This document shows, piece after piece, positions 32,967 to 55,380 of a stretch of 64,000 bases of DNA. Every line of letters begins with the position of its first letter. Positions within the stretch are counted from its first letter, which is position 1. The notes beneath the pieces were generated by a model, which did not search any database, had not been told where the DNA came from, and saw nothing but the letters and a program-made list of their open reading frames with translations. The DNA is from Fidelibacterota bacterium UBA2242 (GTDB lineage: Bacteria > Fidelibacterota > UBA2242): contig DDYE01000017.1 in assembly GCA_002347855.1 (NCBI GenBank), positions 271,685 to 335,684 on the forward strand, written 5' to 3'. A program made the position numbers and the translations under genes.

Positions 32967-32977
32967 TAAACGGTGGG

Positions 32978-40248: not shown

Positions 40249-41351
40249 ACGACGCAATACAGAATCTACGAGTGTTATTAGTCGGAGGATATCCACCGCC
40301 CTATGGGGGTGTAACTGTGCATATTCAACGTCTGCAGCATTATTTGAATAGAGCTGGCGCTAATTGCCTCGTGCTAAATCAGTTCCGTAGTGAGGGGCAA
40401 CCATCTGGGAATATAATTAATCTTTCTGGTGGGAGGTTGGCGCAGTATTTTAAGATGCGGGCTTTGTTAACCAGGACGGACGCTCAAATTATCCATTTTC
40501 ACTTTTCTAAATTGGGTAATTTCTTAATCGGGGGGAGGCATTTAATTAAAGCGGCTGGTAAGGCTATATGTGTGGCAACCTGTCATTCAGGGCAATTAGC
40601 GGTAGAGTTTGCCCACCGCCATAAATTTTATCGGTTGGCAGCAATTGATCTTATTCGGGCATTTGATCACCTGATTGCCGTGAACCCTCAGCAGGTGGAA
40701 TTTTATACTAAAGTTATTGGGATTGAAGCGATACGCGTCAGTCTAATACCAACCTTCATTCTGCCAGAAAGTAGTCAGATTGAATTGCCTCAAGCGATGC
40801 TTAATAAGGTTACTGCCCTACGAAAATGTTGCCGTTGGATTTTGATGGTCAGCGGTTATTTATTGCCATATTATGGTTTTGATTTGTTTCTGGAGGCAGT
40901 TGCTAATTTAGAACGACTCTATCATGCCAAATTTGGGCTGATTTTTATATTTTATACTAAGGCTGATGAGAATTATCGCCAATTATTATTAGCAAAAATT
41001 GAAAAACATGGTTGTAGTCTAGTCTACGAGAATATTAAGCCAAATGACTTTCTGGGGTTATTACAGCAGAGCGATCTTTTTGTGCGTCCTACTCTGGCGG
41101 ATTCTTTCGGCGTATCAGTCGCGGAGGCTTTATATCTGGGAACACCAGTGGTAGCCAGCGATGTCTGTGCGCGACAAGAAGGGGCGGTGCTTTTCAGAAG
41201 TGGTGATGTGCAGGATTTAGTAGCCAAAATTCGGGCGGTAATTGAAAATTATGCAAATATCAAAGCCACACTTACCGAAATTAATCTTCCAAATAACGCT
41301 GAGCAATTGCTGGCTTTATACTACGAGCTTATTAAACAGGGGGAAAAATGA
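40245..41351 (+). CDS. Glycosyltransferase family 4 (GT-B)
   Basis: RPTLADSFGVSVAEALYLGTPVVASD matches the E-x7-E GT4 C-terminal motif. Confidence 0.75.
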   Translation: MNDAIQNLRVLLVGGYPPPYGGVTVHIQRLQHYLNRAGANCLVLNQFRSEGQPSGNIINLSGGRLAQYFKMRALLTRTDAQIIHFHFSKLGNFLIGGRHLIKAAGKAICVATCHSGQLAVEFAHRHKFYRLAAIDLIRAFDHLIAVNPQQVEFYTKVIGIEAIRVSLIPTFILPESSQIELPQAMLNKVTALRKCCRWILMVSGYLLPYYGFDLFLEAVANLERLYHAKFGLIFIFYTKADENYRQLLLAKIEKHGCSLVYENIKPNDFLGLLQQSDLFVRPTLADSFGVSVAEALYLGTPVVASDVCARQEGAVLFRSGDVQDLVAKIRAVIENYANIKATLTEINLPNNAEQLLALYYELIKQGEK

Positions 41352-43474
41352 AGCAGATTGTGCAACATTTAAAAAATGGAAGCATAGAGCTTGCGGAAGT
41401 ACCACGACCAATAGTTACCCGTGGTAAAGTATTAATCAAGACGCAGCTTAGTCTAATTTCGGTCGGAACTGAAAGGATGTTAGTCGAATTTGGTCGCTCA
41501 GGTTGGCTTGCTAAAGCCCAACAGCAACCAGATAAGGTACGTCAGGTTTTAGATAAAATTAAAACTGATGGTCTCATTGCGACGATTGAGGCTGTTACTG
41601 CCAAATTAGATGAACCAATGCCTTTAGGCTATTGTAATGTCGGGGAAATTGTGGAGATTGGCGAAGGTGTGACAGATTTACAAATTGGTGATCGTGTCGT
41701 TTCAAATGGTCCCCACGCCGAATTTGTAACTGTTTCTCAAAACTTGTGTGTTCGTATTCCAGACAGCGTGCCCGATGAAACGGCTGTTTTTACTGTCCTT
41801 GGTTCAATTGGTTTACAGGGGATTCGACTGGCTCAACCTAGTCTCGGAGAAACATTTGTCGTGACAGGTTTAGGTTTGATTGGTCTTCTGTCGGTTCAAA
41901 TCCTCCTGGCTAATGGTTGTAAAGTTATAGGTATTGATGTAAATCCCCAGCGAGTGGCTTTAGCGCGCCGCTTTGGAGCATACGCAATCAATGTCAGTAA
42001 AGAAGATCCTGTCGCAATCTGTGCTGCTTTGACGAATGGTAAAGGGGTGGACGGCGTACTGATTACGGCAGCCACTAAAAGTAACGAGCCGATTCACCAG
42101 GCTGCTCAAATGGCTCGTAAGCGTGGCAGAATTGTATTGGTTGGTGTAACAGGATTGGAACTCAATCGGGCAGATTTTTATGAAAAGGAACTAAGTTTTC
42201 AGGTTTCTTGTTCCTATGGTCCGGGCAGATATGATGAAAATTATGAGCAAAAGGGACAGGACTATCCTGTCGGTTATGTGCGCTGGACTGAAAGGCGCAA
42301 TTTTGAAGCAATTTTGGATTTAATGGCAACTAATAAATTAGATGTTCAACCGCTTATAAGCCATGTTTATCCATTTCAGCAAGCAGGCGAGGCTTACGAT
42401 ACCATAATGCAAAAGAGAGATGCGCTCGGTGTGATATTAGAGTACAAACCAAAAGTTCAAGATGAATCTGTGCGCATCGAGGTTAAGTCGGCAATATTAA
42501 AGACTGCTGCTCCCGCGGTCAATGTTGGCGTAATTGGAGTTGGTAACTACGCCAAACTTATGTTGCTACCGGCTCTTAAAGAAACAGGTGTAAATTTGAG
42601 CAGTGTGGCTGATATTGTGCCATTAGACGCAAGTTATGCCGCTCGTAAATTTGCTTTTCAGACTGCTACCAGTGATTATCATACTATTTTAGCTGATGAA
42701 GACATCAACACGGTATTTATTACCACCCGCCACGATTTACATGCCCGCTTAGTTTGTGAATTTCTTACTGCGGGTAAGAATGTTTTTGTCGAGAAGCCGC
42801 TGGCGTTGAATAAAGAGGAGTTAAGAAAAGTCGAAGAAATCTATCTGAAAGCCGATAGCCGCTTGATGGTCGGATATAATCGGCGCTTTGCTCCCCAGGT
42901 CATCAGAATGAAAGAATTGCTGATAGACAGAAGCGAACCTATTTGTATCAATATTCTGGTTAATGCGGGATACATACCGCCTGAACATTGGGTTCATGAT
43001 CCCCTGGTTGGTGGCGGACGAATCATTGGTGAGGGGTGCCATTTTGTGGACTTGATTGCTTTTTTATGTTGTAGTAAGGTGGTACAGGTTAGCGCTATTG
43101 GAGTTAGAGGCGATTATTTGCGTGACAAGGTCAGTATTAACCTGCGACTCGCTGATGGCTCAATCGGAACTATTCAATACTTAGCCAATGGCAATAAACA
43201 ATATCCTAAGGAAACAGTACAAGTTTTCAGTTCAGGACGAATCCTGGAACTCGTGAATTTTCGCAAATTAGTTGGTTATGGCTGGAAAGGTTTTCGAAAA
43301 TTTAATTTATGGAAACAAGATAAAGGGCATAAGGCAGAAATCAAAGCCTTTATCACGGCGATTTGCACTGGACAAGTTGCACCAATATCGTTCGAGGAAA
43401 TGAAAAACACAAGCGAAGCAACTTTTGCTATCATGGAAGCCCTGGAATCAAAACAGACCGTCGAAATAAAATGA
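41348..43474 (+). CDS. Bi-domain oxidoreductase: N-terminal Zn-dependent alcohol dehydrogenase (MDR) fused to C-terminal Gfo/Idh/MocA
   Basis: The N-half carries the GroES-like fold and GLGLIGLL. The C-half reads VGVIGVGNYAKLMLLPAL and VFVEKPLALNKEE. Total length is 708 aa. Confidence 0.75.
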   Translation: MKQIVQHLKNGSIELAEVPRPIVTRGKVLIKTQLSLISVGTERMLVEFGRSGWLAKAQQQPDKVRQVLDKIKTDGLIATIEAVTAKLDEPMPLGYCNVGEIVEIGEGVTDLQIGDRVVSNGPHAEFVTVSQNLCVRIPDSVPDETAVFTVLGSIGLQGIRLAQPSLGETFVVTGLGLIGLLSVQILLANGCKVIGIDVNPQRVALARRFGAYAINVSKEDPVAICAALTNGKGVDGVLITAATKSNEPIHQAAQMARKRGRIVLVGVTGLELNRADFYEKELSFQVSCSYGPGRYDENYEQKGQDYPVGYVRWTERRNFEAILDLMATNKLDVQPLISHVYPFQQAGEAYDTIMQKRDALGVILEYKPKVQDESVRIEVKSAILKTAAPAVNVGVIGVGNYAKLMLLPALKETGVNLSSVADIVPLDASYAARKFAFQTATSDYHTILADEDINTVFITTRHDLHARLVCEFLTAGKNVFVEKPLALNKEELRKVEEIYLKADSRLMVGYNRRFAPQVIRMKELLIDRSEPICINILVNAGYIPPEHWVHDPLVGGGRIIGEGCHFVDLIAFLCCSKVVQVSAIGVRGDYLRDKVSINLRLADGSIGTIQYLANGNKQYPKETVQVFSSGRILELVNFRKLVGYGWKGFRKFNLWKQDKGHKAEIKAFITAICTGQVAPISFEEMKNTSEATFAIMEALESKQTVEIK

Positions 43475-45477
43475 ATCTTAGCCTTCCATTTTATCTTCTC
43501 AAAGAGATGGGACCGAGATGGGTTTTCTATCGTGGTCTGTACTGGCTTTACCAGCGTACTAGGCTCCAGCAATTATTTTTTCCTGCACGCCAAATTAATT
43601 TTCAGCAGTACTCAAAACTACCGCTTGATTTTTCGAAGGAAGAGATAAAGTCATGTTTAAATTTCTGGCTTGGCAAGGTGGATGAACACGCTAATCTCAG
43701 GAGTTTTTATAACGATTATCCTGAAATTCAATCTCAAATTAAAAATCGCTATACTGCCCTGAAAGCCGGCCGCTTCACCTTTTTTTCAAAGTTAGAATTT
43801 GATTTGGGATTGCCACCGAATTGGTTTTTAAGCCCACAGACCTCCAAAACCAGTCAGGCGAATTGCCACTGGACAAAAATTCGTGACTTCGATGCAAGCC
43901 TTGGTGATATTAAATTCGTCTGGGAATTATCACGTTTTGCCTGGGTTTATGATCTTGTGCGATACTATGTATTGACGGAGGATGAAGAAGCAGTAGAACT
44001 GTTCTGGTACTTATTTGAAGATTGGATTACAAAGAATTTTCCGGAAAAAGGACCGCATTGGAAATGTGGTCAGGAAATTGCCATGCGCTCTTTAGCGGTT
44101 CTATTCGTACTCCAGCATACCTTTTATGCTAAAGCAACTACCCCGACAAGAATACGTCTGGCTGGGGGCTTCTTACGGTATAATGCCCAACATATTAAGC
44201 GCAACTTTTGGTATGCTAATCGCTCAATTAAAAATAATCATACGATTAGTGAAGCTGCCGGTTTATATCTCATCGGTAATTTCCTAAAGTATCTGAAGGA
44301 ATCTGCTCAATGGAGAAAAATCGGCAAGCGTACTTTAGAACGGGAAATTCAGCGTCAGGTTTATATTGACGGAACTTATTTGCAGCATTCGTTTAATTAC
44401 GAGCGTTTAGTTGTCCAGTGGCTATGTGTGTGTCTTACCGCAAATAAATGGGGTGCAGATGAATTTTCAAGAGAAATTACCCAACGGCTAAGAAGCATGG
44501 CCGAAACGCTTTATCAACTCCAGGATGAGCATAGTGGGCAACTGCCCAATTATGGTGCAAATGATGGAACGCTTTTGCAGCCGCTAACATCCTGCGACTA
44601 TTTAGATTACCGACCACAGCTGCAAGCTGCCTACTTTTTGACCACGCGACGCCGTCTATATGTACCGGGCATCTGGGACGAATTATTAATCTGGTTGCAG
44701 GGAGTGGTTCCGGAAGAAACTGCCCGTGATAAAATTCAGCGCATCACCTCTGCTTTTGAAATTGGAGGCTACTATATTCTACGATTAACTGAAGATGAAC
44801 CTCATTTTATGTTGCGGTGTGCTAATTATCATCACCGCCCTGGGCATGCTGACATGCTTCACCTGGATTTTTGGTACGGCGGAGTAAATGTCCTCACTGA
44901 CTCTGGTACCTTTTCTTACTTTCCAGCGGATGAGGCAAAAATGGGCTTTGTCGAGACTAAAGCCCATAACACCGTCTGGGTCGATGGACGCAGTCAGATG
45001 GATCACTGGGGTGCGTTTCTTTGGACAAAATGGACTAAATCCAAACTGGTGCGTTTTGTCAAAGAAACAGAGCAAATCAAATGGGAAGGCGAGGTTTATG
45101 ACCATCAAGGAATAATCCACAATCGCAGCCTAATTCTGCGAAATGGTTTATGTATTGTCCGTGATCGAATCGTCGGCAATTTTAATTTTGCTGAGATTAA
45201 TTGGAACGTTAATGCTCTCATTTTATCCCAAAATGATTATTGGCAAATTCAGATTGGCGATAGGTCGCTTTACATTCTTACTAATTATCAGTTAGAAGCC
45301 ATCCCAGGTGAAATTTCCCGCTATTATGGTCATCTGGAAAAAATCACTCGTTTGCATAGTAGACAAAAATCAAACCAAGAGAAGGTAATTTGGGTAACAT
45401 TATTAGCGTGGAGTAATGCGGAATCACCCTTAGAAATTGATAAATTAAGACGACAATATTTATTTCGTGAAAATTGA
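43471..45477 (+). CDS. Heparinase II/III family protein
   Basis: HPGHADMLHLDFWYGGVNVLTDSGT is a Hepar_II_III-like motif. The start overlaps the previous stop in an ATGA arrangement. The ORF-track start at 43363 is disfavoured. Confidence 0.65.
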   Translation: MNLSLPFYLLKEMGPRWVFYRGLYWLYQRTRLQQLFFPARQINFQQYSKLPLDFSKEEIKSCLNFWLGKVDEHANLRSFYNDYPEIQSQIKNRYTALKAGRFTFFSKLEFDLGLPPNWFLSPQTSKTSQANCHWTKIRDFDASLGDIKFVWELSRFAWVYDLVRYYVLTEDEEAVELFWYLFEDWITKNFPEKGPHWKCGQEIAMRSLAVLFVLQHTFYAKATTPTRIRLAGGFLRYNAQHIKRNFWYANRSIKNNHTISEAAGLYLIGNFLKYLKESAQWRKIGKRTLEREIQRQVYIDGTYLQHSFNYERLVVQWLCVCLTANKWGADEFSREITQRLRSMAETLYQLQDEHSGQLPNYGANDGTLLQPLTSCDYLDYRPQLQAAYFLTTRRRLYVPGIWDELLIWLQGVVPEETARDKIQRITSAFEIGGYYILRLTEDEPHFMLRCANYHHRPGHADMLHLDFWYGGVNVLTDSGTFSYFPADEAKMGFVETKAHNTVWVDGRSQMDHWGAFLWTKWTKSKLVRFVKETEQIKWEGEVYDHQGIIHNRSLILRNGLCIVRDRIVGNFNFAEINWNVNALILSQNDYWQIQIGDRSLYILTNYQLEAIPGEISRYYGHLEKITRLHSRQKSNQEKVIWVTLLAWSNAESPLEIDKLRRQYLFREN

Positions 45478-46709
45478 TTATGCGTGTTCTTTATATCCAC
45501 CAATATTTTAATACTCATCGTGAAGCCGGTGGGTCGCGCTCATATTCCTTAGCCAGAGCCCTCATAGCAAAAGGACATCAGGTTGTGATGTTAACTTCGA
45601 ATCGCAATAATCCTGACCTACCAGCGGTCTACTCCTGTCAGATTGATGGGATTGAAGTCGTATATGTTAAGAATCGCTATTCGAACAAGATGGGTTTTCT
45701 GCGGCGGATTTTATCCTTCTTACATTTTATGTTCATGTCTATTTTGGTGGCCTCACGAGTGCGCAATATTGATCTGGTTTTTGCTACTTCGACGCCCTTA
45801 ACAGTCGGTATACCAGGGATAATTTTTAAAAGGCTTTATAAGGTTCCTTTTGTCTTTGAAGTTCGTGATTTATGGCCTGAGTTAGCAATTGCCATGGGAA
45901 TAATTAAAAATCGAATAGTTATTAATGTAACCAGCTGGTTGGAAGCAAAAATTTATCAGGAATCTGACCATATTATCAGTTTAGCGCCGGGAATCACCAA
46001 GGGCATAATTGCTAAAAGCGTTCCGGCAGAAAAGGTGACTATGATTTCCAACGGCTGCGACCTGAATTTATTTAGAGCAGAGGTACACTCACAACCATCT
46101 AACTGGCAATTTCAGGAAGAAGATTTAGTTCTGGTTTATGCTGGCACTCATGGATTGGCGAATGGTTTACAATGGGTGATAGAGGTAGCCAAAGAAGCCA
46201 AACTGCGTCGCCAAATACGCATAAAATTTGTTTTGATTGGTGATGGTATGACTAAGCCTGATCTGATTAGACAAAAAGAGCAATTTGAATTAGACAATGT
46301 ATTTTTTCTCGATCCAATGCCTAAGCAACAATTAGTCGATTATTTAGCAGCAGCAGATATGGGTATGCAATTATTGGCAAATGTGCCTTCTTTTTATTAT
46401 GGTACATCACCCAATAAATTTTTTGATTATCTGGCGGCAGGAAAACCGGTTTTAAATAATTATCCCGGTTGGGTGGCAGACTTAATTCGTCAATGGCAAT
46501 GTGGGATTGTTGTCAGATCTGATGACTATGATGATTTTTTCAGGCAAATTGAGCCGTTAATTACTAATCGCCAATTATTGAAAGCGATGGGGGAGAGAGC
46601 GCGGAATTTGGCTTCTGCTCATTTTAGACGAGATGAGCTTGCTACGCGTTTTGTCCAGACTCTGGAGTGTACTTGTCGTGAATATCAGGAGAGGAGGACA
46701 GCTATTTAA
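45474..46709 (+). CDS. Glycosyltransferase family 4 (WbuB-like)
   Basis: The N-terminus is RVLYIHQYFNTHREAGGSRSY. GT-B C-terminal motifs are present. Confidence 0.75.
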   Translation: MIMRVLYIHQYFNTHREAGGSRSYSLARALIAKGHQVVMLTSNRNNPDLPAVYSCQIDGIEVVYVKNRYSNKMGFLRRILSFLHFMFMSILVASRVRNIDLVFATSTPLTVGIPGIIFKRLYKVPFVFEVRDLWPELAIAMGIIKNRIVINVTSWLEAKIYQESDHIISLAPGITKGIIAKSVPAEKVTMISNGCDLNLFRAEVHSQPSNWQFQEEDLVLVYAGTHGLANGLQWVIEVAKEAKLRRQIRIKFVLIGDGMTKPDLIRQKEQFELDNVFFLDPMPKQQLVDYLAAADMGMQLLANVPSFYYGTSPNKFFDYLAAGKPVLNNYPGWVADLIRQWQCGIVVRSDDYDDFFRQIEPLITNRQLLKAMGERARNLASAHFRRDELATRFVQTLECTCREYQERRTAI

Positions 46710-47374
46710 TGGCTTCCTTAAAAGACATTGTTATTGTTGGGGCTGGGGGACATGCCAAAGAAATTGCTTATTTAATCGAAGCGATCAATCTTGAAAAACC
46801 GACCTGGAATCTTTTAGGAATGATAGAACGGGATGCGCAGAACATCGGGAAACCATGCGGTAAATATAGTGTTATTGGCGATGACACCTTTTTCCAAAAG
46901 CGTTATGCTAACCTTAATGTAGTAGTCGCAATTGGGCAACCGCAGCGAGTCAAACAAATTTATACCAGTTTGCAGAATGAATATCCGGAATTGCTCTTCC
47001 CGAATTTAATATTTCCTACCGTCCAGCCTGGTTTGCGAGAGGTAGCGATGGGAATTGGTAACATCATTTGCGAAGGAAACATTTTTACGACGGATATTCA
47101 ACTTGGCTCATTTAATTGTCTTAATCGCGGGAATAATATCAGTCATGATGTTAAAATTGGGGATTTTGTGACGATAAATCCAGGAGTTAACATTTCCGGT
47201 GGGGTAGTAATTGAGTCGGAATGCCTGATTGGTACGGGCGCAACGATTTTGCAATATTTAACAATTGGGAGAGGAGCGGTCGTCGGTGCAGGGGCAGTCG
47301 TTACGAAAAATGTTTCCCCATCTACGACTGTAATTGGAGTTCCTGCTCAACCATTAAAGAGAAAAATTGTTTAA
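46709..47374 (+). CDS. NeuD/PglD-family sugar N-acetyltransferase (left-handed beta-helix)
   Basis: IVIVGAGGHAKEIAYLIEAIN is a Rossmann-like N-terminus. Hexapeptide repeats run through the C-terminus. Confidence 0.7.
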   Translation: MASLKDIVIVGAGGHAKEIAYLIEAINLEKPTWNLLGMIERDAQNIGKPCGKYSVIGDDTFFQKRYANLNVVVAIGQPQRVKQIYTSLQNEYPELLFPNLIFPTVQPGLREVAMGIGNIICEGNIFTTDIQLGSFNCLNRGNNISHDVKIGDFVTINPGVNISGGVVIESECLIGTGATILQYLTIGRGAVVGAGAVVTKNVSPSTTVIGVPAQPLKRKIV

Positions 47375-48364
47375 ATGGAGGTAGTATTGCGAGTCTTAAT
47401 TACGGGAGGTGCTGGGTATATAGGTTCAGTTTTGACCCGGCAACTTTTAGAAAAAGGATATCAAGTCCGTGTCTTGGATTGTCTGAATTATGGAGGCGAG
47501 TCAATCCTCGGTGTTTTAAGCAATCCGAATTTTGAGTTTTTACGGGGAGATATTCGCAGAAAAGCTGATGTCGCAGAAGCACTTCAGGATGTTGATGCGG
47601 TAGTGCATTTAGCGGCTATTGTGGGCGATCCGGCTTGTGCCAAACAACCACAATTAGCGCGTGAGACTAATCTTAATGCCTCACTGATGTTATATGAACT
47701 TTGCCAGAATCAATCAAGCGTGAAGCGTTTCGTTTTTGCATCCACTTGCAGTAATTATGGCAAGATGGAGGGTAGCGATTATATTGATGAGACAGCGCCG
47801 CTTAAACCGATTTCGCTTTATGCCGAATTGAAAGTAGCTTTTGAGCAGCATCTACTGAGTTCAAAAACTCGTGGCGATTTTATCCCGACCGCCTTGCGGT
47901 TTGCTACCGTTTACGGGATTTCGCCAAGGATGCGCTTTGACTTGACCGTGAATGAATTCACACGCGATGCCGCTCTGGGACGCGAGTTGGTGATTTACGG
48001 TGAGCAATTCTGGCGTCCTTATTGTCATGTAGAAGACCTGGCACGGGCGTGTGCTTTAATTCTGGAATCTCCTTGCGATAAAGTAGATCATGAGGTTTTT
48101 GGTGTCGGTGATAAATCGGAAAATTATCAGAAAAAGATGCTTGCCGAAGAAATTAAACGCATTTTACCGGAAACAAAAGTCAAGTATGTCCACAAAGATG
48201 AAGATCCGCGTGATTATCGAGTAGACTTTACCAAAATAAAAAAGCAATTAGGATTCTCAATAACCAAAACCGTTCCACAGGGAATTCGCGAAATTGTCTT
48301 TGTTATTCAGAATGGTATTTTGCACGATCCCTTCAATAAAATTTATTCAAATATCTCGGAGTAA
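47375..48364 (+). CDS. NAD-dependent sugar epimerase/dehydratase (SDR)
   Basis: LITGGAGYIGS is the Rossmann motif. The YxxxK motif reads YAELK. Confidence 0.75.
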   Translation: MEVVLRVLITGGAGYIGSVLTRQLLEKGYQVRVLDCLNYGGESILGVLSNPNFEFLRGDIRRKADVAEALQDVDAVVHLAAIVGDPACAKQPQLARETNLNASLMLYELCQNQSSVKRFVFASTCSNYGKMEGSDYIDETAPLKPISLYAELKVAFEQHLLSSKTRGDFIPTALRFATVYGISPRMRFDLTVNEFTRDAALGRELVIYGEQFWRPYCHVEDLARACALILESPCDKVDHEVFGVGDKSENYQKKMLAEEIKRILPETKVKYVHKDEDPRDYRVDFTKIKKQLGFSITKTVPQGIREIVFVIQNGILHDPFNKIYSNISE

Positions 48365-48366
48365 GT

Positions 48367-49527
48367 ATGATTCCACTTTCTGTCCCGCACATAGCTGGTA
48401 ACGAATGGCAGTATATCAAAGAATGCCTGGATACTGAATGGGTCTCTTCAGCCGGTAAATATGTCGATTTATTTGAACAACAGGTTGCTAAACTGGCCGG
48501 TTCCAAATTTGCGATCGCTTGCGTGAATGGCACTGCTGCTTTGCAAGTTGCTTTAGAAGTTGCCGGTCTAAAACCTGACGAAGAGGTAATAGTCCCAACT
48601 CTTACCTTCATCGCTTCCGTGAATGCAGTGCGTTATAACCGAGCTGAACCAATTTTTTTTGATTGCGATGACTATTACTGTCTTAATATTGATAAAATAA
48701 TCGAGTTCATTCGACAGGAAACTATTTTTAAACATGGTGCGAGTTTTAACCGTAAGACTGGTAAGCGGATAAGAGCCTTGGTAGCAGTCCACGTTTTTGG
48801 AAATGCGGTTAATCTGGAACCACTGTTGGAGCTTTGTCACGAGCGGGGCATCCTTGTAGTCGAAGATGCAGCTGAAAGTATTGGTACAGTTTATCGCGGG
48901 GGAAAGCTGGACGGCAAAGCCACTGGTGTCGTCGGTGACATTGGTTTTTATAGTTTCAATGGCAATAAAATTATCACGACTGGAGGCGGCGGGATGATTG
49001 TTACAAATAATTCCGAGTATGCCGAACGAGCCCGTTACCTGACGACTCAAGCCAAAGATGATGAGGTTCGCTATATTCACCATAACATTGGCTACAATTA
49101 TCGTTTGACCAATATCCAGGCGGCCTTAGGCGTTGCCCAACTCGAAAAATTAGGAGAGTATATCGAAAGAAAGCGCACGAATTATCAATATTTTAAACAG
49201 GCTATTGATCAAATTCCCGGTCTCCATCTGGCTGAAGTTCCACCCTATTGTGAACCCAATTATTGGTTCTATAATTTGCAAATTGATAAGGACATCTACG
49301 GGCGGGATAGAGAAGAATTATTGGCACTTTTTACCGCAGAAAAAATTCAGGTGCGACCAGTCTGGTATTTAAATCACTGGCAAAAGCCTTATGTAAAAAA
49401 TCAAACCTATAAAATCGAAAAAGCCATCCAACTATTCGAAAAAACTTTGAATATTCCCTGTTCCGTCAATTTAACCACAGAGCAACGCACTAAGGTTATT
49501 GAGGTGCTAAAAAATGGTCAACGCTAA
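48367..49527 (+). CDS. DegT/DnrJ/EryC1/StrS-family PLP-dependent sugar aminotransferase (PglE-like)
   Basis: Fold-type I aminotransferase. The PLP-lysine sits in the FYSFNGNKIITTGGGGMIV context. Confidence 0.85.
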   Translation: MIPLSVPHIAGNEWQYIKECLDTEWVSSAGKYVDLFEQQVAKLAGSKFAIACVNGTAALQVALEVAGLKPDEEVIVPTLTFIASVNAVRYNRAEPIFFDCDDYYCLNIDKIIEFIRQETIFKHGASFNRKTGKRIRALVAVHVFGNAVNLEPLLELCHERGILVVEDAAESIGTVYRGGKLDGKATGVVGDIGFYSFNGNKIITTGGGGMIVTNNSEYAERARYLTTQAKDDEVRYIHHNIGYNYRLTNIQAALGVAQLEKLGEYIERKRTNYQYFKQAIDQIPGLHLAEVPPYCEPNYWFYNLQIDKDIYGRDREELLALFTAEKIQVRPVWYLNHWQKPYVKNQTYKIEKAIQLFEKTLNIPCSVNLTTEQRTKVIEVLKNGQR

Positions 49528-50206
49528 TCGTTATCTGCAACGGTTAATTAAATATTCCCTGGATAAACTATTATCTATACTGGGTTTATTAATCACCTCT
49601 CCAATCTTTGTTTTTGTTGCTCTCATTCTAAAACTAAAGGGGCAAGATGTTTTTTTTAAGCAAGCAAGAGTGGGAGAGGATGGCAAAGACTTTTGGGTTT
49701 TCAAGTTCACTACAATGCCCAAAGGTTCCGAAAAATTAGGTTTAATAACGACTAGCAACGACAGCAGACCATTTGCGTTTGGGAAATTTCTACGGAAGAC
49801 TAAAATCAATGAATTACCACAATTACTGAATGTTCTCAATGGCAGTATGAGTCTAGTCGGACCACGCCCACTGGTTCGTGAACAAATAGAAGAAGGACTG
49901 ACAGCTGCTGAGATTAAAGCCTTCTATCGGATGCGGCCTGGGATTACTGGCGCAGGCTCGCTCTATTTTCACCACGAAGACCGTTTATTAGCCAACGTTG
50001 CTGAACCGCATCGGTATTATCGAGAAGTGATTCTACCTCAAAAAAAATCCATCGAACAAGCCTACGCTGAGCATTGGAATCTCTGGCTTGATATAAAACT
50101 ATTGTGGTTGACGATATGGGTTGTAATTTTAGATTGGATTGGTAAAGAGGTGACCGATGTTCAATTGGATCTTTTTAAAGATATTAGGAAAGCAGATGAA
50201 AATTAG
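49514..50206 (+). CDS. Small monotopic phosphoglycosyltransferase (PglC/WbaP catalytic-domain type, bacterial sugar transferase)
   Basis: A re-entrant helix at the N-terminus, then KFTTMPKGSEKLG...KINELPQLLNVLNGSMSLVGPRP. Confidence 0.8.
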   Translation: MVNANRYLQRLIKYSLDKLLSILGLLITSPIFVFVALILKLKGQDVFFKQARVGEDGKDFWVFKFTTMPKGSEKLGLITTSNDSRPFAFGKFLRKTKINELPQLLNVLNGSMSLVGPRPLVREQIEEGLTAAEIKAFYRMRPGITGAGSLYFHHEDRLLANVAEPHRYYREVILPQKKSIEQAYAEHWNLWLDIKLLWLTIWVVILDWIGKEVTDVQLDLFKDIRKADEN

Positions 50207-50229
50207 CTATTTAGTATCTTAAGGTATAT

Positions 50230-51228
50230 ATGGGTTTCAAATTCCCCAAAATAATTGTATTAATAAGTCTTGTCGGACTTTCTGATTGCAATTTTAATCT
50301 ACCAACTAATCATAGTAACGGCAATTTTGACCTCCAGACTCTACCTCAGGAAATGCTTTTATATATCCCAACTTATGATGGTTCTAATCAAGCTACTCAT
50401 CCCGATGTCCTTTTTTTCCCAGAAGGGAGGAACGGTATTTACTTTTATTTAGTCATGACACCTTACCCCTGGAGCAATAACCGCTATGAGAATCCAAGCC
50501 TGTTATTCAGTCGCAATGGAGTGAATTTTTACGAACCAGTAACAGGTCTAAACCCTTTGGTGCCCCAGCCAACTTATGACCATAACAATGATCCCGACCT
50601 TATTTTCAATCCGCTTACCGAGGCATTCAATATTTTTTATCTCGAAACAATGCGTCCCGATTCGCAAAACACGGTTCTATTAACCAGTCCCGATGGTATT
50701 AAATGGAGAAAAAAAACCGCTGTCCATTATGATTTGAAAGCTGGTGACCCTTTTATTTTGTCCCCTGCTGTAATATTTGTCGATAGTTGTTTCTATATGT
50801 TTTATGTAAAAGCCCAGAGCACAACTCAAACTGAAATCAATTATATTACCAGCCCTGACGGTGAAAAATGGGAAAAAGATAGTGTTAATAGGGTATCGAC
50901 CAATTTTTCCGCCCAATTTGCACCCTGGCATCTGGATGTTTTTCGGGATGAAAATTATTTCTATATGTTATGTTGTGGACCCTATAAAGATTTGAATCTC
51001 TATTTAGGACAGTCAACCGATTTACAGAATTGGAAATTTTTAGAAGAGCCAATTATCAGAAGGTCAAAGAATTTTTACGACAGTGAAAGAATATACCGCA
51101 GTTCTGGTATTGTCCAGGATAATCTTTTGGTGGTTTATTTTTCACTCCGTACAAATTTGGGACAATGGAGAATCGGTTTGAAGAAATTTTCTTTGATGGA
51201 ACTTTTTAAAAATGATTTGCACCAATAA
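50230..51228 (+). CDS. Hypothetical secreted/lipoprotein-like protein (possible beta-propeller glycoside-hydrolase-like fold) inside the polysaccharide locus
   Basis: A signal peptide with Cys at 20. Aromatic- and Asn-rich with Trp/Tyr periodicity. No confident family assignment. Confidence 0.35.
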   Translation: MGFKFPKIIVLISLVGLSDCNFNLPTNHSNGNFDLQTLPQEMLLYIPTYDGSNQATHPDVLFFPEGRNGIYFYLVMTPYPWSNNRYENPSLLFSRNGVNFYEPVTGLNPLVPQPTYDHNNDPDLIFNPLTEAFNIFYLETMRPDSQNTVLLTSPDGIKWRKKTAVHYDLKAGDPFILSPAVIFVDSCFYMFYVKAQSTTQTEINYITSPDGEKWEKDSVNRVSTNFSAQFAPWHLDVFRDENYFYMLCCGPYKDLNLYLGQSTDLQNWKFLEEPIIRRSKNFYDSERIYRSSGIVQDNLLVVYFSLRTNLGQWRIGLKKFSLMELFKNDLHQ

Positions 51229-51393
51229 AAAGACTTGCAGTATAATCATAAAGCTTGTATATTAAATTAGTATGTGGAAAGATAGAGGTAAATAAAACGC
51301 ATTGATAGCCGTCATATCTATCTGAATTCACTTTACTGACATTACTTCCCAGATAACTAAAGCAGAGTGAATAACTAACAAGATCGCATAATC

Positions 51394-53979
51394 TTGGCAA
51401 AAAGTGTCATTTTAGCTGGAGGAATTATTGTGCTTAGTTGGCTGATTATGATTTTATTGATTACCTTTTTAGCGGCACTCTTTTTCACCCGAGTTGCCCG
51501 CTCGATTGCGCTCAAATATCACATCGGTGATATGCCCAATGCCCGCAAAGTGCATAAAACCTTTATGCCCTATCTAGGAGGAGCAGCCATACTCCTGGCG
51601 ATAATTCTCGGGACGATTTTGTCGGTATATATCTTACCTGACGTTGCTGGTCCTGTGCCAAGGCGTTACTATTTCTTAGGAATAACTGCGGTAGCTATTG
51701 CCTTGGTTGGGCTTTATGATGATTTAAAAAAATTACGCTTCACGACAAAATTTTACTGCCAGTTTATCGCTGCCATGGTAGTGATCGCGGGTGGTTTGCG
51801 CTTTACCTCTATTTATATTCCGTATATCGGTGATATTTACCTGGGGTGGAGCGGGTACATATTTACCCTGCTTTGGATAATATTTATTACCAATGCCATG
51901 AATTTATTGGATGGCTTGGACGGCTTGGCAGCTGGTGTCTCATCGATTATTTTTCTGACTTTTGCTATCATTGCGTTGCATAGTGGGCGAACACTGGTAG
52001 CGCTTGTCAATTTATTACTGATTGCTGCTAACTTAGGATTTTTGAAATATAACTACCATCCGGCTACTATTTTTATGGGAGACACGGGTTCCCTCTTCCT
52101 GGGATTTGCCACGGCGATTATTTCGCTGGAAATAGGACGCATTGGAGAAAGTGACCATCTGAATGTCATTCTTCCTTTGACTGTGATGGCGATGCCAGTA
52201 TTAGATACAACTATTGCTTTTTTCAGACGAGCCAGTAAACGCATGCATCCTTTTAAAGCCGATAAAGAGCATATTCATCATCGTCTAATGTCGATAGGAT
52301 TTTCGCATAAAAATGCTGTCAAGGTCATCTATTTTATTAGTGCCTGTACTGGTCTGATGGGACTTTCTTTCATCTTTTTGGACCGAAAGGGAATCATCAC
52401 TGCACTTTTCTGCGGATTGGTCTTCACGATGATACTAATACGTCGGCTGGGATATTTTGAAATTGAGAAGAATTTAATTGTCGTGCCCAATAGCAATGGT
52501 AATGGGAACAGTTCCACTAATGGATTATTAAATGGCAATGGTCACAAAGAGCAAAAATTTATTCCTTTCGATACTTCGCAATTTGTTCAGGCGGCGCTCT
52601 TTTTCTTGAGCGATGCAATCTTCTGTTGTTTAACCTTTCTACTGGTCTATTTCTATGAAATCAAGGTAATGCTGCCCTCTAACAGTGCTCTTGCGCCTTA
52701 TGATTTAAGCTTATGGATGGTTTGGTCGGTTTTGTACTGGAGCATTTTGCTTGGTTTAAATAATCTCTATCATATTGAATGGGACACCTCGCGCATTGAT
52801 GAAATCTTCTCAGTTTTTAAAATAGTCTTTTTCGGTACGGTAGTCCTCTTTTTCCTGAGTTTTGAAATAAAAATTCCCTTTCTCGTCTCTCGCCGCGTAT
52901 TTCTGCCTTATGGTATTCTATTAACGATTGGTCTCGGCCTCGGACGTATCCTGCTGATTTCCTTTTTAAAATCCAGAGAGATTTTAGAGTTCAAGAAAAG
53001 ACCGACTATTATTATTGGACTCTCCAATTCTGCTATGAATGTCGTTAAAAAAATCAACAATATGCCCGTTCTCAAATTTCAATTGGTTGGTTTTATTGAT
53101 GATAAAAACAATGGCAATGTCGGGCAGGTAATTCAAAATCTTCCCGTATTGGGCAATTACGCCGATATTCCGCAAGTGATTAAAAAATACAAAATCAAGG
53201 AAGTCATAATTGCTATTGATGACAACGACATCAATAAAGTCATGGATTTGATTGCCTGGTTCTGTCAATACAATGTTTCGATTAAATTAGTGCCAGATTT
53301 TTACAACCTGCTGACTGGTTTTAAAACTGCTCATATTTATGGTATTTCGCTGATAAAATTTTTTGACTCCAATATGAAAACCTGGGAATGGGTGCTCAAG
53401 CGTCTAATCGACATCATCATTTCCCTCATTGTGTTAATCGTATTTGCACCGTTCTGGCTGATTATCAGCATCATTATCAAACTGGATTCGCCTGGACCCG
53501 TCTTTTATCGTCAGAAACGGGTAGGCAAGAATCGTCAGGAATATGAATTAATCAAATTTCGCTCCATGGTTCAAAATGCTGAGGAATTGACCGGACCAAA
53601 ATGGGCGGAGAAAGATGATCCGCGGGTGACCCGTTTTGGGCGCTTTTTGCGTAAATATGGCTTGGATGAAATTCCGCAATTTTTCAATGTTCTGATTGGT
53701 GATATGAGCATTGTTGGTCCTCGTCCAGAGCGTCCCTTTTTCGTCAATGAGCTGGAGCATTCGATTCAATTTTATTCACGCCGCTTGATTGTCAAGCCTG
53801 GTATTACGGGTTGGGCTCAGATTAAATATAAGTACGATGAGACCATCGAAGATGTGCGTGAGAAATTACGCTATGATTTATATTATATTGAGAATATGTC
53901 GGTGCTGCTCGATTTAAAAATAATTGTTCGAACTCTATTGGTCGGTCTGCGCAAAAAGCATCATATTGCTTACGTCTAA
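51394..53979 (+). CDS. Fused phosphoglycosyltransferase: N-terminal WecA/MraY-family (polytopic) joined to a full WbaP-type (TM region, CoA-binding-like domain, monotopic catalytic domain)
   Basis: The N-half carries YDDLKK (DDxxD), [21 protein letters not shown] and HIHHR, all MraY/WecA motifs. The C-half carries TIIIGLSN...LVGFIDD and [17 protein letters not shown]...[35 protein letters not shown]. Total length is 861 aa. Confidence 0.75.
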
Positions 53980-54025
53980 TATTCTCTAAGGGTTTCGCAT
54001 AAAAATTCCTCACGTGATGGTAAAA

Positions 54026-54076
54026 TTTTTCGGAAGGCTATTTATTATCCTATTTTGATTCCGAAAAAATTTTTAT
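54026..54076 (+). terminator. Terminator-like long hairpin (10-bp stem tttttcggaa/ttccgaaaaa, 23-nt loop, T-rich tail) at the end of the polysaccharide locus
   Basis: Inverted repeat seen directly. The T-tract TTTTTATTTTA follows. Confidence 0.35.
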
Positions 54077-54102
54077 TTTATGCCGTCAATCTTGGAGAAT
54101 TC

Positions 54103-55380
54103 ATGTTAGACTTGAAAGCTATACGTTCTGAACCTGAAAAATTCCTGCGGTTATTAGAAGCCAAAGGCGCTGCTGAGAACTTGAACCGGCTCCTCGACCT
54201 GGATTACCAGCGGCGTCAGTTAGTGACAAAAACCGATGAGTTAAAAAGTCTGCGCAATCGCGTAAGCGACGAGATAGCCCGGTTAAAAAGAGCGGGAGCA
54301 GCAGCTGAAGATAAAATTAAAGAAATGAAATCCGTCAGCCTGCAGATAAAAGAGCAGGATGAGCAAATCCGCTCACTTGAAGAGCAAATTCACCAGATAT
54401 TAATCACACTCCCCAATATACCCCACGCTTCTGTTAAAATAGGACGAAGCGCGGCTGACAACGAGGTGGTAAAAATCTGGGGAGAGGTGCCGACTTACGA
54501 TTTTCCACTTAAAGATCATCTCGATTTAGCGGAGAATCTTGGTATTATTGATTTCAAGCGGGCGGCGAAAATTTCGGGAACTGGTTTCCCGCTTTATGTC
54601 GGAGACGGGGCAGTTTTGGAGCGGGCGCTAGTAAATTTCATGCTGGATTTTCATCGTAAAAAACACGGCTACCGTGAAGTTTTTCCACCATTTCTGGTCA
54701 ATCGTGATTCTGCCTTCAGTACCGGTCAATTGCCTAAACTCGAAGAAGATATGTACTTGACCAGTGAAGATGACTTATTCTTAATTCCAACTGCCGAGGT
54801 TCCGGTCACCAATATTCATCGCGACGAAATCATACCTGAAAACAAGTTGCCAATCAAATATGTCGCCTATTCCGGCTGTTTCCGTCGGGAAGCTGGTTCT
54901 TATGGCAAAGAGACGCGCGGTCTTTCTCGGGTGCATCAATTTAATAAAGTCGAATTGGTCTGGTTCACGATCCCGGAAACATCCTATGACGTTCATGAGA
55001 AGTTACTGCAAGATGCTGAGGAAATTTTACAAGCATTAAATTTACACTATCGAGTTGTCTCACTGTGCTCGGGTGATTTGAGTTTTGCGGCAGCAAAATG
55101 CTATGATATTGAAGTCTGGGCGCCTGGGACAGGTAAATATTTTGAGGTTTCAAGCGTTAGTAACTTTGAGGATTTTCAGGCTCGACGGGCAAATATTCGT
55201 TACCGCCGCTCGGGCGATAATAGAGTTGGTTATGTGCATACCCTGAATGGTTCCGGAGTAGCAACACCCCGACTGATGATTGCCCTTTTGGAGACCTATC
55301 AGACTGACGAGGGAACAATCGTAGTTCCGGAAGCTCTGCAACCTTATACTGGTTTTAGTTTGATTAAAACTACGGTTTGA
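54103..55380 (+). CDS. serS: Seryl-tRNA synthetase
   Basis: MLDLKAIRSEPE is the canonical start, followed by a coiled-coil arm. Class II motifs include FRREAGS and GSGVATPRL. Confidence 0.9.
   Translation: MLDLKAIRSEPEKFLRLLEAKGAAENLNRLLDLDYQRRQLVTKTDELKSLRNRVSDEIARLKRAGAAAEDKIKEMKSVSLQIKEQDEQIRSLEEQIHQILITLPNIPHASVKIGRSAADNEVVKIWGEVPTYDFPLKDHLDLAENLGIIDFKRAAKISGTGFPLYVGDGAVLERALVNFMLDFHRKKHGYREVFPPFLVNRDSAFSTGQLPKLEEDMYLTSEDDLFLIPTAEVPVTNIHRDEIIPENKLPIKYVAYSGCFRREAGSYGKETRGLSRVHQFNKVELVWFTIPETSYDVHEKLLQDAEEILQALNLHYRVVSLCSGDLSFAAAKCYDIEVWAPGTGKYFEVSSVSNFEDFQARRANIRYRRSGDNRVGYVHTLNGSGVATPRLMIALLETYQTDEGTIVVPEALQPYTGFSLIKTTV

What the first reader, a model, noticed from the sequence alone, without database searches (positions are those of the whole stretch)
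51394..53979. Single polypeptide fusing a complete polytopic (WecA/MraY-type) and a complete monotopic (WbaP-type) phosphoglycosyltransferase
The 861-aa ORF carries two distinct sets of motifs. The N-half has every MraY/WecA-superfamily catalytic motif: DDxxD (YDDLKK), [21 protein letters not shown] and HIHH. The C-half has the TM bundle, the CoA-binding-like Rossmann region, and the monotopic PGT catalytic domain (GLDEIPQ ... GPRP) of large WbaP-type enzymes.

The two superfamilies are evolutionarily unrelated and use different membrane topologies. Each alone is sufficient to prime Und-P. Both halves look catalytically intact, which suggests dual priming (for example HexNAc-1-P and hexose-1-P) or a regulatory pairing. 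A third, separate PglC-type PGT sits 1.2 kb upstream (49514-50206), so the locus encodes three initiating-enzyme domains.

I am not aware of a characterised WecA-WbaP fusion.
Basis: partly seen in the sequence, partly recalled or inferred. Interest (0 to 1): 0.7.

Follow-up and report, generated by a model that had tools for sequence, protein, structure and literature searches.

The report
Two unrelated sugar-priming enzymes fused
One real 849-residue membrane protein joins two evolutionarily unrelated enzymes that each start cell-surface sugar chains on the same lipid carrier; both catalytic centres look intact here, but the fusion is widespread and only uncharacterised, not new.

Summary

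Its parts, in order:
- an 11-helix WecA/MraY-type polytopic phosphoglycosyl transferase (PGT)
- a disordered linker
- the four-helix bundle and nucleotide-binding domain (DUF) of large monotopic PGTs
- a monotopic PGT catalytic domain

Every catalytic motif of both superfamilies is present, and both active sites should face the cytoplasm.

It is not an assembly artefact. The identical protein occurs on at least 18 contigs read in the look-up, from several sequencing runs. More than 100 sequence clusters share the architecture (Marinimicrobia, Ignavibacteriae/Bacteroidota, Calditrichota), usually beside serS.

Relatives show reciprocal decay. Calditrichota-like clades have lost the monotopic Lys and Asp-Glu residues. 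A Marinimicrobia subclade has lost all polytopic motifs. Another group has no monotopic domain at all. The scaffold therefore persists without either activity.

Dual priming is the best reading for this protein but is untested. The upstream small PGT carries a conserved Asn-Glu in place of the Asp-Glu dyad. From memory, such fusions were noted in a 2021 network analysis, without biochemistry.

The parts
51418..51423 (+). Ribosome-binding site GGAGGA, six nt before the GTG start
   Evidence: Sequence read directly. Database copies of the protein start at this GTG.
51430..53979 (+). Fusion gene, 849 codons plus stop.
   Evidence: ORF list and translation. P0001 is a 100% identical 849-aa protein on at least 18 contigs read.
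51430..52449 (+). Polytopic PGT half (residues 1-340): 11 predicted transmembrane helices, WecA/MraY-type
   Evidence: PF00953 at 139 bits. TIGR02380 WecA model at 146 bits, below its cut-off of 326. Alignment to MraY structures. Hydropathy gives 11 segments. Foldseek to MraY gives target-normalised TM-scores of about 0.66-0.80.
51718..51723 (+). Asp97-Asp98 (DDxxK motif) of the polytopic PGT
   Evidence: Invariant in 104 of 104 aligned fusions. Aligns to the DD of the MraY 'gfvDD' / 'gfwDD' stretch.
51892..51927 (+). [12 protein letters not shown] motif of the polytopic PGT
   Evidence: N155, N158, D161 and D164 are invariant in 104 of 104. Aligns to NAVNLTDGLDGL of MraY.
52075..52092 (+). 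MGDTGS motif (Asp218) of the polytopic PGT
   Evidence: M-G-D and G220 are invariant in 104 of 104. Aligns to FMGDVGS of MraY.
52270..52281 (+). HIHH motif in the last cytoplasmic loop of the polytopic PGT
   Evidence: H281, H283 and H284 are invariant in 104 of 104. Aligns to the HHH of MraY.
52453..52560 (+). Disordered cytoplasmic linker (residues 342-377). It is Asn/Gly-rich in this clade only.
   Evidence: AlphaFold2 pLDDT below 50 over residues 342-377. The insertion is present only in Marinimicrobia-like sequences.
52573..52977 (+). Four-helix transmembrane bundle of large monotopic PGTs (residues 382-516)
   Evidence: Model helices at 382-414, 423-443, 455-479 and 488-516. Hydropathy. 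TIGR03025 covers residues 406-855 of the 861-aa form.
52987..53364 (+). Cytoplasmic Rossmann-like domain ('DUF', Pfam CoA_binding_3), residues about 520-645
   Evidence: PF13727 at 64 bits. Alternating strand-helix pattern in the model. Foldseek match to 3nkl. In WbaP this domain makes the dimer and binds uridine nucleotides (PMC10942596).
53365..53976 (+). Monotopic PGT catalytic domain with re-entrant helix (residues 646-849)
   Evidence: PF02397 at 235 bits. Alignments to WbaP structures and matches to PglC chains. Foldseek to PglC gives a target-normalised TM-score of about 0.82. The model helix breaks at Pro674 (651-671 / 673-686).
53554..53556 (+). Lys709 (KFRSM) of the monotopic PGT
   Evidence: Lys in 83 of 104 aligned fusions; lost in all 21 Calditrichota-like sequences. 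Aligns to kfrsm of WbaP.
53665..53670 (+). Asp746-Glu747 catalytic dyad of the monotopic PGT
   Evidence: Aligns to LDELPQ of WbaP. D-E in 83 of 104 fusions; Y-K in the seven listed variants from the other 21.
53719..53727 (+). Pro-Arg-Pro motif (GPRPE) of the monotopic PGT
   Evidence: GPRPE in 102 of 104. Aligns to vGPRP of WbaP.
49514..50206 (+). Separate small monotopic-PGT-like gene at the 3' end of the Wzx-type polysaccharide locus; Asn-Glu in place of the Asp-Glu dyad
   Evidence: PF02397 at 171 bits. KINELPQ aligns to slDELPQ of PglC 8g1n. N-E in 120 of 120 best homologues.
54055..55380 (+). serS, first gene of the housekeeping block that follows the fusion in Marinimicrobia-like and Calditrichota genomes
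   Evidence: Pfam. Synteny in L081, L085, L088, L090 and L091.

Best explanation
The gene encodes a bifunctional initiating enzyme.

**N-terminal half.** It is an 11-helix WecA-like polytopic PGT. It should transfer a sugar-1-phosphate, most likely a HexNAc-1-phosphate, from a UDP-sugar to undecaprenyl phosphate.

**C-terminal half.** It is a complete large monotopic PGT: a four-helix bundle, a uridine-nucleotide-binding dimerisation domain, and a re-entrant-helix catalytic domain with the Lys / Asp-Glu / Pro-Arg-Pro set. It is closest to exopolysaccharide and WcaJ-type hexose-1-phosphate transferases.

**How the two fit together.**
- Both active sites lie on the cytoplasmic face. A flexible linker of about 35 residues joins the halves.
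- Each half uses the same scarce lipid carrier and releases UMP.
- I infer that the central four-helix/nucleotide-binding module serves both halves as a dimer scaffold and a UMP-sensing brake. One polypeptide would then apportion the carrier between two glycan pathways.
- One of those pathways may be the adjacent Wzx-type locus.

**Shown:** the architecture, the intact motifs, the two folds, the membrane topology, conservation across phyla, and reciprocal decay in relatives.

**Inferred:** that both halves are active in vivo, the sugar specificities, and shared regulation through the central module.
For: **Architecture and folds**
- Domain order and scores.
- Motif-by-motif alignment to MraY and WbaP structures. 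PglC chains also match and PglC matches by fold.
- AlphaFold2 model with mean pLDDT 78.6 and pTM 0.75; only the linker is disordered.
- Foldseek recovers MraY, WbaP and PglC from the single model.
- Hydropathy gives 11 + 4 helices plus a re-entrant helix. This puts the end of the polytopic half and the start of the monotopic half on the same, cytoplasmic, side.

**Constraint on both catalytic centres**
- In 83 of 104 aligned fusions spanning 39-96% identity, every catalytic residue of both halves is kept.
- The 21 sequences that lost the monotopic residues show what relaxed constraint looks like.
- In this protein's clade the monotopic domain is the more conserved half: 81% against 67% mean identity.

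**Conservation of the gene**
- The fusion sits beside serS / class II aldolase / acyltransferase in two Marinimicrobia-like loci and one Calditrichota genome.
- A fourth locus shows serS and the acyltransferase.

**Role of the central module**
- Published work: the WbaP nucleotide-binding domain makes the homodimer, binds uridine nucleotides, and UMP inhibits the enzyme. The authors call this a 'one-size-fits-all' control (PMC10942596).
- Dimerisation controls activity of a large monotopic PGT (PMC12802240).
- 23 representative proteins consist of the polytopic PGT plus the four-helix bundle plus the nucleotide-binding domain, with no monotopic domain. Two checked examples are complete genes. 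That module therefore also accompanies polytopic PGTs on its own.
Against: - There is no biochemical evidence for either activity.
- Among 50%-identity representatives with the four-part architecture, only about 3 of 18 keep both centres. Thirteen have a decayed monotopic centre.
- A Marinimicrobia subclade has a decayed polytopic centre. The fusion plainly survives with one activity.
- Motif conservation does not prove that both halves work here.
- The N-terminal half scores below the WecA model cut-off, and the C-terminal half scores just below the WcaJ cut-off. The sugar specificities are therefore guesses.
- The idea of shared regulation is extrapolated from WbaP.
- I could not inspect interdomain contacts, because neither model coordinates nor predicted aligned error were available.
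Confidence: 0.6

Rival explanations
1. Only one half is catalytically relevant in this organism. The other half, although its motifs are intact, serves as a membrane scaffold, a dimerisation partner or a carrier-lipid-binding module, as it evidently does in relatives.
For: - 21 of 104 close homologues, and 13 of about 18 four-part representatives, have lost the monotopic Lys and Asp-Glu residues but keep the whole domain.
- P0132, P0403, P0404 and P0405 have lost all polytopic motifs. The three full-length ones keep the complete polytopic-like N-terminal half; P0405 is N-terminally truncated.
- In clades B and C a neighbouring gene fuses a family-2 glycosyltransferase to a four-helix/nucleotide-binding module with a gutted monotopic domain.
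- The module is therefore widely used non-catalytically.
Against: - In this protein and 82 aligned relatives down to 39% identity, every catalytic residue of both halves is retained.
- Lineages that lose function lose many motif residues at once. A silent, inactive-but-intact half is therefore unlikely to persist over such divergence.
Confidence: 0.27
2. The two halves act in sequence on one glycan rather than starting two. For example, the polytopic half makes the lipid-linked HexNAc and the monotopic-type domain adds a sugar-1-phosphate to a later intermediate, giving a phosphodiester-linked polymer.
For: - The only support is the physical coupling of the two domains and the presence of a separate small PGT-like gene in the adjacent locus.
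- No direct evidence was found.
Against: - The monotopic half keeps the re-entrant helix and the full residue set used for transfer to polyprenyl phosphate.
- Either half can be lost independently in relatives. That fits parallel rather than obligately sequential roles.
- I know of no monotopic PGT with a sugar acceptor (own knowledge).
Confidence: 0.05
3. The long ORF is an artefact: two adjacent genes joined by a sequencing or assembly error.
For: None found.
Against: - The identical 849-aa product is called on at least 18 contigs read, from several independent sequencing runs.
- More than 100 clusters at 35-96% identity have the same continuous architecture.
- The linker varies in length yet stays in frame.
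Confidence: 0.01

Closest known systems
WecA / MraY polytopic phosphoglycosyl transferases (Pfam PF00953; structures 4J72, 5JNQ, 9ZNO)
   Same: - It has the same motif set: DD, NxxNxxDGxDGL, MGDxGS and the His-rich loop.
- It has the same fold, with target-normalised TM-scores of about 0.66-0.80.
- The 11 predicted helices and the HIHH loop resemble WecA (11 helices, from memory) rather than MraY (10 helices).
   Different: - It scores below the curated WecA and MraY model cut-offs, so it is not an orthologue of either.
- About 500 further residues follow it in the same chain.
Large monotopic PGTs: S. enterica WbaP (8T53), E. coli WcaJ, exopolysaccharide sugar transferases (TIGR03025)
   Same: - It has the four-helix bundle, the nucleotide-binding domain, the re-entrant helix and the Lys / Asp-Glu / Pro-Arg-Pro residues.
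- It passes the TIGR03025 cut-off, 438 bits against 295.
   Different: - It fails the WbaP model (229 against 403) and narrowly the WcaJ model (401 against 410.75).
- Its N-terminus is not free; it continues from a polytopic PGT.
Polytopic-monotopic PGT fusions noted in the monotopic PGT sequence-similarity-network study (O'Toole, Imperiali and Allen, PNAS 2021; cited as reference 18 in PMC11626204)
   Same: As I recall the abstract, it reports 'unexpected fusions' of monotopic PGTs with members of the polytopic superfamily. This protein would be one of them.
   Different: - I could not open the paper, so I cannot say which clades or features it covered.
- Full-text searches found no open-access paper describing such a fusion's biochemistry, its reciprocal decay or its synteny.
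Bifunctional monotopic PGTs (a monotopic core fused to an acetyltransferase or glycosyltransferase)
   Same: The logic is the same: pathway enzymes are co-localised on one membrane-bound chain (class described in PMC11626204).
   Different: In those fusions the partner performs a different step. Here the partner catalyses the same kind of reaction by an unrelated fold and mechanism.
PglF-like sugar dehydratases that carry the same four-helix/nucleotide-binding module
   Same: They show that this module is portable and attaches to unrelated catalytic domains (PMC10942596). I find it attached to polytopic PGTs too.
   Different: They have a different catalytic partner, and the module sits at the N-terminus rather than between two catalytic domains.

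Membership tests
Polytopic PGT superfamily (MraY/WecA, PF00953) | Match to the family profile above the curated threshold | tested here: met
   PF00953 at 139 bits against a cut-off of 27.
Polytopic PGT superfamily (MraY/WecA, PF00953) | Catalytic motifs: DD, NxxNxxDGxDGL, MGDxGS and the His-rich loop | tested here: met
   All are present and align to MraY structures. They are invariant in 104 of 104 fusions.
Polytopic PGT superfamily (MraY/WecA, PF00953) | Ten- or eleven-helix membrane fold | tested here: met
   Hydropathy gives 11 segments. The model matches MraY with target-normalised TM-scores of about 0.66-0.80.
Polytopic PGT superfamily (MraY/WecA, PF00953) | UDP-sugar:polyprenyl-phosphate transferase activity, inhibited by tunicamycin | not testable with these tools
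   This needs an enzyme assay.
WecA proper (TIGR02380, GlcNAc-1-phosphate transferase) | Score above the curated model cut-off | tested here: not met
   146 bits against a cut-off of 326. The half is WecA-like, not a WecA orthologue.
Large monotopic PGT (Lg-PGT; PF02397 with PF13727) | Bac_transf catalytic domain plus the N-terminal four-helix bundle and nucleotide-binding domain | tested here: met
   PF02397 at 235 bits and PF13727 at 64 bits. TIGR03025 at 438 bits against 295. The model shows four helices and a Rossmann-like domain.
Large monotopic PGT (Lg-PGT; PF02397 with PF13727) | Asp-Glu dyad, conserved Lys, Pro-Arg-Pro, and a re-entrant helix with a Pro break | tested here: met
   K709, D746-E747 and P764-R765-P766 align to WbaP. 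The helix breaks next to Pro674.
Large monotopic PGT (Lg-PGT; PF02397 with PF13727) | Functional homodimer through the nucleotide-binding domain | not testable with these tools
   Only single-chain prediction is offered. The dimer is known for WbaP (PMC10942596).
WbaP (TIGR03022) / WcaJ (TIGR03023) orthologues | Score above the curated model cut-off | tested here: not met
   WbaP model 229 against 403; WcaJ model 401 against 410.75.
Polytopic-monotopic PGT fusion class | Both catalytic domains in one uninterrupted chain, conserved in homologues | tested here: met
   One ORF. More than 100 clusters carry PF00953 + PF13727 + PF02397. Independent assemblies agree.
Polytopic-monotopic PGT fusion class | Prior description in the literature | tested here: inconclusive
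   I recall it from the abstract of the 2021 PNAS paper. Neither that paper nor the related review is held. No open-access text describing the fusion was found.

The most novel reading that the evidence does not exclude
The fusion may be a carrier-lipid allocation hub. One dimeric, UMP-sensing four-helix/nucleotide-binding module would sit between two mechanistically unrelated PGT catalytic domains and couple them. Flux into two glycan pathways would then be cross-regulated at the first committed step.

Reciprocal pseudo-enzyme formation in sister lineages indicates that the architecture itself is under selection, not only its catalysis. Those lineages have a dead polytopic half, a dead monotopic half, or no monotopic half at all.
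Probability: 0.3. Interest if true: 0.7.

Novelty: new member of a known kind. Interest (0 to 1): 0.45.

Why it matters

- **A natural comparison system.** This chain holds one enzyme from each of the two unrelated superfamilies. The two mechanisms, their inhibitor sensitivities (tunicamycin acts on the polytopic class only) and their regulation can be compared in one protein.
- **A test of shared control.** It allows a test of whether the nucleotide-binding domain of large monotopic PGTs is a general UMP-feedback and dimerisation module.
- **Natural controls.** Relatives provide three kinds: variants with a dead polytopic half, variants with a dead monotopic half, and variants lacking the monotopic half.
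- **Annotation.** Public annotation currently names these proteins after one half only, which hides a second probable activity.

Tried and rejected
1. **Genome-collection scan.** I ran it with the fusion alignment. Only stand-alone large monotopic PGTs came back (matches from about residue 340 onward, mostly from 370 onward).
2. **Literature.**
   - The 2021 PNAS network paper and the 2021 Biochem Soc Trans review are not held.
   - Eight full-text searches found no open-access description of such a fusion.
3. **AlphaFold-database fold search.** The library was unavailable.
4. **Model coordinates and predicted aligned error.** They are not exposed. I could not measure the distance between the active sites or the contacts between the halves.
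5. **Promoter and terminator scan of 50100-54200.** It found no more sites than shuffled sequence. Whether the gene is transcribed with the polysaccharide locus remains open.
6. **Search for a partner gene.** I looked in the window and in two Marinimicrobia-like loci for the gene that pairs with the fusion in clades B and C: a family-2 glycosyltransferase joined to a four-helix/nucleotide-binding module. None was found.
7. **Gene fission.** I considered whether the 600-700-aa polytopic-plus-module proteins are fusions split from a downstream monotopic gene. I rejected this: no such downstream gene exists in the two loci checked.
8. **Neighbour-joining tree of the polytopic domain.** It is star-like. 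I used it only to place P0132 beside the window's clade, not to order the loss events.
Full report
**1.

The + strand is open from 51394 to 53979.
- Glycos_transf_4, E = 1.6e-40
- CoA_binding_3, E = 2.1e-17
- Bac_transf, E = 4e-70

All three are above their gathering scores.

NCBIfam places the C-terminal 450 residues in the exopolysaccharide polyprenyl glycosylphosphotransferase model. The score is 438 bits for TIGR03025 against a cut-off of 295. The N-terminal 320 residues score best against WecA, at 146 bits for TIGR02380, below its cut-off of 326.

The likely start is GTG 51430. GGAGGA lies six bases upstream, and database copies of the protein begin there. The protein is therefore 849 aa, and residue numbers below use that start.

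**2. It is one real gene**

- The identical 849-aa product is called on at least 18 contigs read, from several independent sequencing runs, always with the same neighbours.
- More than 100 clusters at 35-96% identity carry PF00953 + PF13727 + PF02397 in one chain of 800-860 aa.
- The linker differs in length between clades but stays in frame.

The mis-join alternative is excluded.

**3. Anatomy**

Hydropathy gives:
- 11 membrane segments in residues 1-340
- a hydrophilic linker
- four segments in residues 388-513
- one very hydrophobic segment at residues 662-680

An AlphaFold2 model built on 104 homologues has mean pLDDT 78.6 and pTM 0.75. Only residues 342-377 are disordered.

Foldseek against the PDB recovers both folds from this single model:
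- MraY chains, target-normalised TM-scores of about 0.66-0.80
- WbaP (8T53)
- PglC, about 0.82

Sequence alignments to solved structures place these residues on the catalytic residues of MraY:
- Asp97-Asp98
- Asn155/Asn158/Asp161/Asp164
- Asp218
- His281/283/284

Lys709, Asp746-Glu747 and Pro764-Arg765-Pro766 fall on the corresponding residues of WbaP; PglC chains match the same region.

Eleven helices bring the end of the polytopic half into the cytoplasm. That is where the four-helix bundle of a large monotopic PGT begins. The topology is self-consistent, and both active sites should face the cytoplasm. This last point follows from the known topologies of the two families.

**4. Conservation, and what relatives reveal**

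I aligned 104 full-length fusions.
- The polytopic motifs are invariant in all 104.
- The monotopic Lys and Asp-Glu are kept in 83.
- They are lost together in the 21 Calditrichota-like sequences. The listed variants read Tyr-Lys at the dyad, and GPRPE is retained.

Mean identity to the window protein, by clade:

| Clade | Polytopic half | Monotopic catalytic domain |
|---|---|---|
| Marinimicrobia-like (n = 32) | 67% | 81% |
| Ignavibacteriae/Bacteroidota-like (n = 50) | 40% | 58% |
| Calditrichota-like (n = 21) | 41% | 38% |

In the first two clades the monotopic domain is the more constrained half. In the third it has relaxed.

I then searched 1.84 billion cluster representatives with the profile and scored the motifs. 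Among about 18 four-part representatives:
- Three keep both centres.
- Thirteen have a decayed monotopic centre.
- One, P0132, has the reverse: all polytopic motifs are gone but the monotopic set is intact.

P0132 is 45% identical to the window protein and is also followed by serS. A follow-up search shows it is not a one-off. P0403, P0404 (named Candidatus Marinimicrobia) and P0405 share the decay.

A further 23 representatives consist of the polytopic PGT plus the four-helix bundle plus the nucleotide-binding domain, with no monotopic domain. In the two loci checked these are complete genes with no split-off monotopic gene downstream.

**5. Genomic setting**

Window 31644-51228 is a Wzx-type polysaccharide locus. 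Its predicted products are:
- sugar dehydrogenases and epimerases
- a Wza-like exporter
- a chain-length regulator
- a flippase
- glycosyltransferases
- a PglD-like acetyltransferase
- a DegT aminotransferase
- a small monotopic PGT

The fusion follows after an unassigned 332-aa ORF and a 200-bp gap. After the fusion come serS, a class II aldolase and an acyltransferase.

The block formed by the fusion and serS recurs elsewhere:
- In a Marinimicrobia genome with no polysaccharide locus upstream, the gene before the fusion encodes an rRNA adenine dimethylase-family protein (Pfam RrnaAD).
- In another Marinimicrobia-like contig, a different polysaccharide locus lies upstream.
- In a Calditrichota genome, one extra gene lies between the fusion and serS.

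The fusion therefore behaves as a conserved core gene beside a variable locus.

In the Ignavibacteriae/Bacteroidota-like and Calditrichota clades a nearby gene fuses a family-2 glycosyltransferase to a four-helix/nucleotide-binding module. In the two examples I aligned, the monotopic domain is gutted. No such gene lies in the window.

**6. Mechanism**

The best-supported reading is dual initiation. Two different lipid-linked sugar primers would be made by one chain. The polytopic half probably makes a HexNAc-phosphate primer and the monotopic half a hexose-phosphate primer. The specificities are inferred only from the best-scoring models.

Published work on WbaP shows three things about its nucleotide-binding domain (PMC10942596):
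- It forms the homodimer.
- It binds uridine nucleotides.
- UMP inhibits the enzyme.

The same module also heads PglF-like dehydratases. Dimer formation controls another large monotopic PGT (PMC12802240).

UMP is the by-product of both PGT classes. The module also accompanies polytopic PGTs without any monotopic domain. I therefore infer that it serves both halves here, and that it links two pathways drawing on one carrier-lipid pool. This step is inference.

The main rival is that one half is a structural passenger, as in many relatives. Against this, both motif sets are strictly retained across 83 sequences down to 39% identity.

**7. Comparison with what is known**

Each half is a clear member of its superfamily, but neither is an orthologue of WecA, MraY, WbaP or WcaJ.

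As I recall the abstract, the monotopic PGT network study of 2021 reported 'unexpected fusions' with polytopic PGTs. I could not open that paper, and I found no open-access account of the fusion's biochemistry.

I therefore file this as a new member of a catalogued but uncharacterised class. I cannot tell whether three observations made here are already published:
- the reciprocal decay of the two halves
- the synteny with serS
- the polytopic-plus-module proteins

**8. The 'third PGT'**

The small protein at 49514-50206 is a true Bac_transf family member. It has Asn where PglC has the first residue of the Asp-Glu dyad. All 120 best homologues share Asn-Glu.

This is a conserved subfamily, not a lesion. 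The published covalent-intermediate mechanism uses that Asp (from memory), so its activity is uncertain.

If the small protein is not a conventional initiator, the neighbouring fusion becomes a candidate initiator for the locus.

**9. Verdict**

- The structural interpretation is correct.
- The functional interpretation (dual priming) is plausible, at about 0.6, and untested.
- The novelty claim is overstated, because the architecture is widespread and probably already noted.

Interest is moderate. The protein is a good experimental handle on two open questions: how the two PGT classes differ in mechanism, and how they are regulated.

Noticed in passing
window 49514-50206 (+): The small monotopic-PGT-like protein has Asn-Glu where the family's catalytic Asp-Glu dyad lies (KINELPQ). 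All 120 best homologues (41-100% identity) share Asn-Glu while keeping the Lys; this protein also keeps Pro-Arg-Pro. It is a conserved variant subfamily of unknown chemistry.
   Followed up: partly
L086 14445-16496; L087 12469-14553; L089 12342-14348; L090 10450-12534: In Ignavibacteriae/Bacteroidota-like and Calditrichota loci the fusion has a neighbour that joins a family-2 glycosyltransferase to a four-helix/nucleotide-binding module. In L086 and L087, which I aligned, the monotopic domain lacks the dyad-containing core. This may be a docking partner. No such gene is present in the window.
   Followed up: partly
P0132 (L091 58-2523), P0403, P0404, P0405: This Marinimicrobia subclade of the fusion has lost every catalytic motif of the polytopic half. 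P0132, P0403 and P0404 keep the full-length N-terminal half; P0405 is N-terminally truncated. The monotopic half is intact. It is the reverse of the Calditrichota case.
   Followed up: yes
P0134, P0168, P0182, P0194 (L092 6001-8010), P0270 (L093 6001-8103) and 18 more representatives: These 600-700-aa proteins consist of an intact polytopic PGT plus the four-helix bundle and nucleotide-binding domain of large monotopic PGTs, with no monotopic catalytic domain. One is from Candidatus Tectomicrobia. I know of no description of this architecture.
   Followed up: partly
window 41348-46709 (+); L087 1-7584: A three-gene cassette recurs in the window and in a Calditrichota locus next to the fusion. 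It comprises a fused zinc-type alcohol dehydrogenase / Gfo-Idh-MocA oxidoreductase (708 aa), a heparinase II/III-like protein and a family-4 glycosyltransferase. In L087 three short ORFs lie between the oxidoreductase and the heparinase-like gene.
   Followed up: no
window 52489-52542 (+): The interdomain linker carries an Asn/Gly-rich low-complexity insert ([18 protein letters not shown]). It is found only in the Marinimicrobia-like clade.
   Followed up: no
window 29360-31483 (+): This 707-aa ORF has no Pfam match. It lies between a tsaD-like gene and the first gene of the polysaccharide locus.
   Followed up: no
window 50230-51228 (+): This 332-aa ORF lies between the small PGT and the fusion. 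Its only match is a sub-threshold hit to the glycoside hydrolase family 32 N-terminal domain. It is present in all four assemblies shown for this genome.
   Followed up: no
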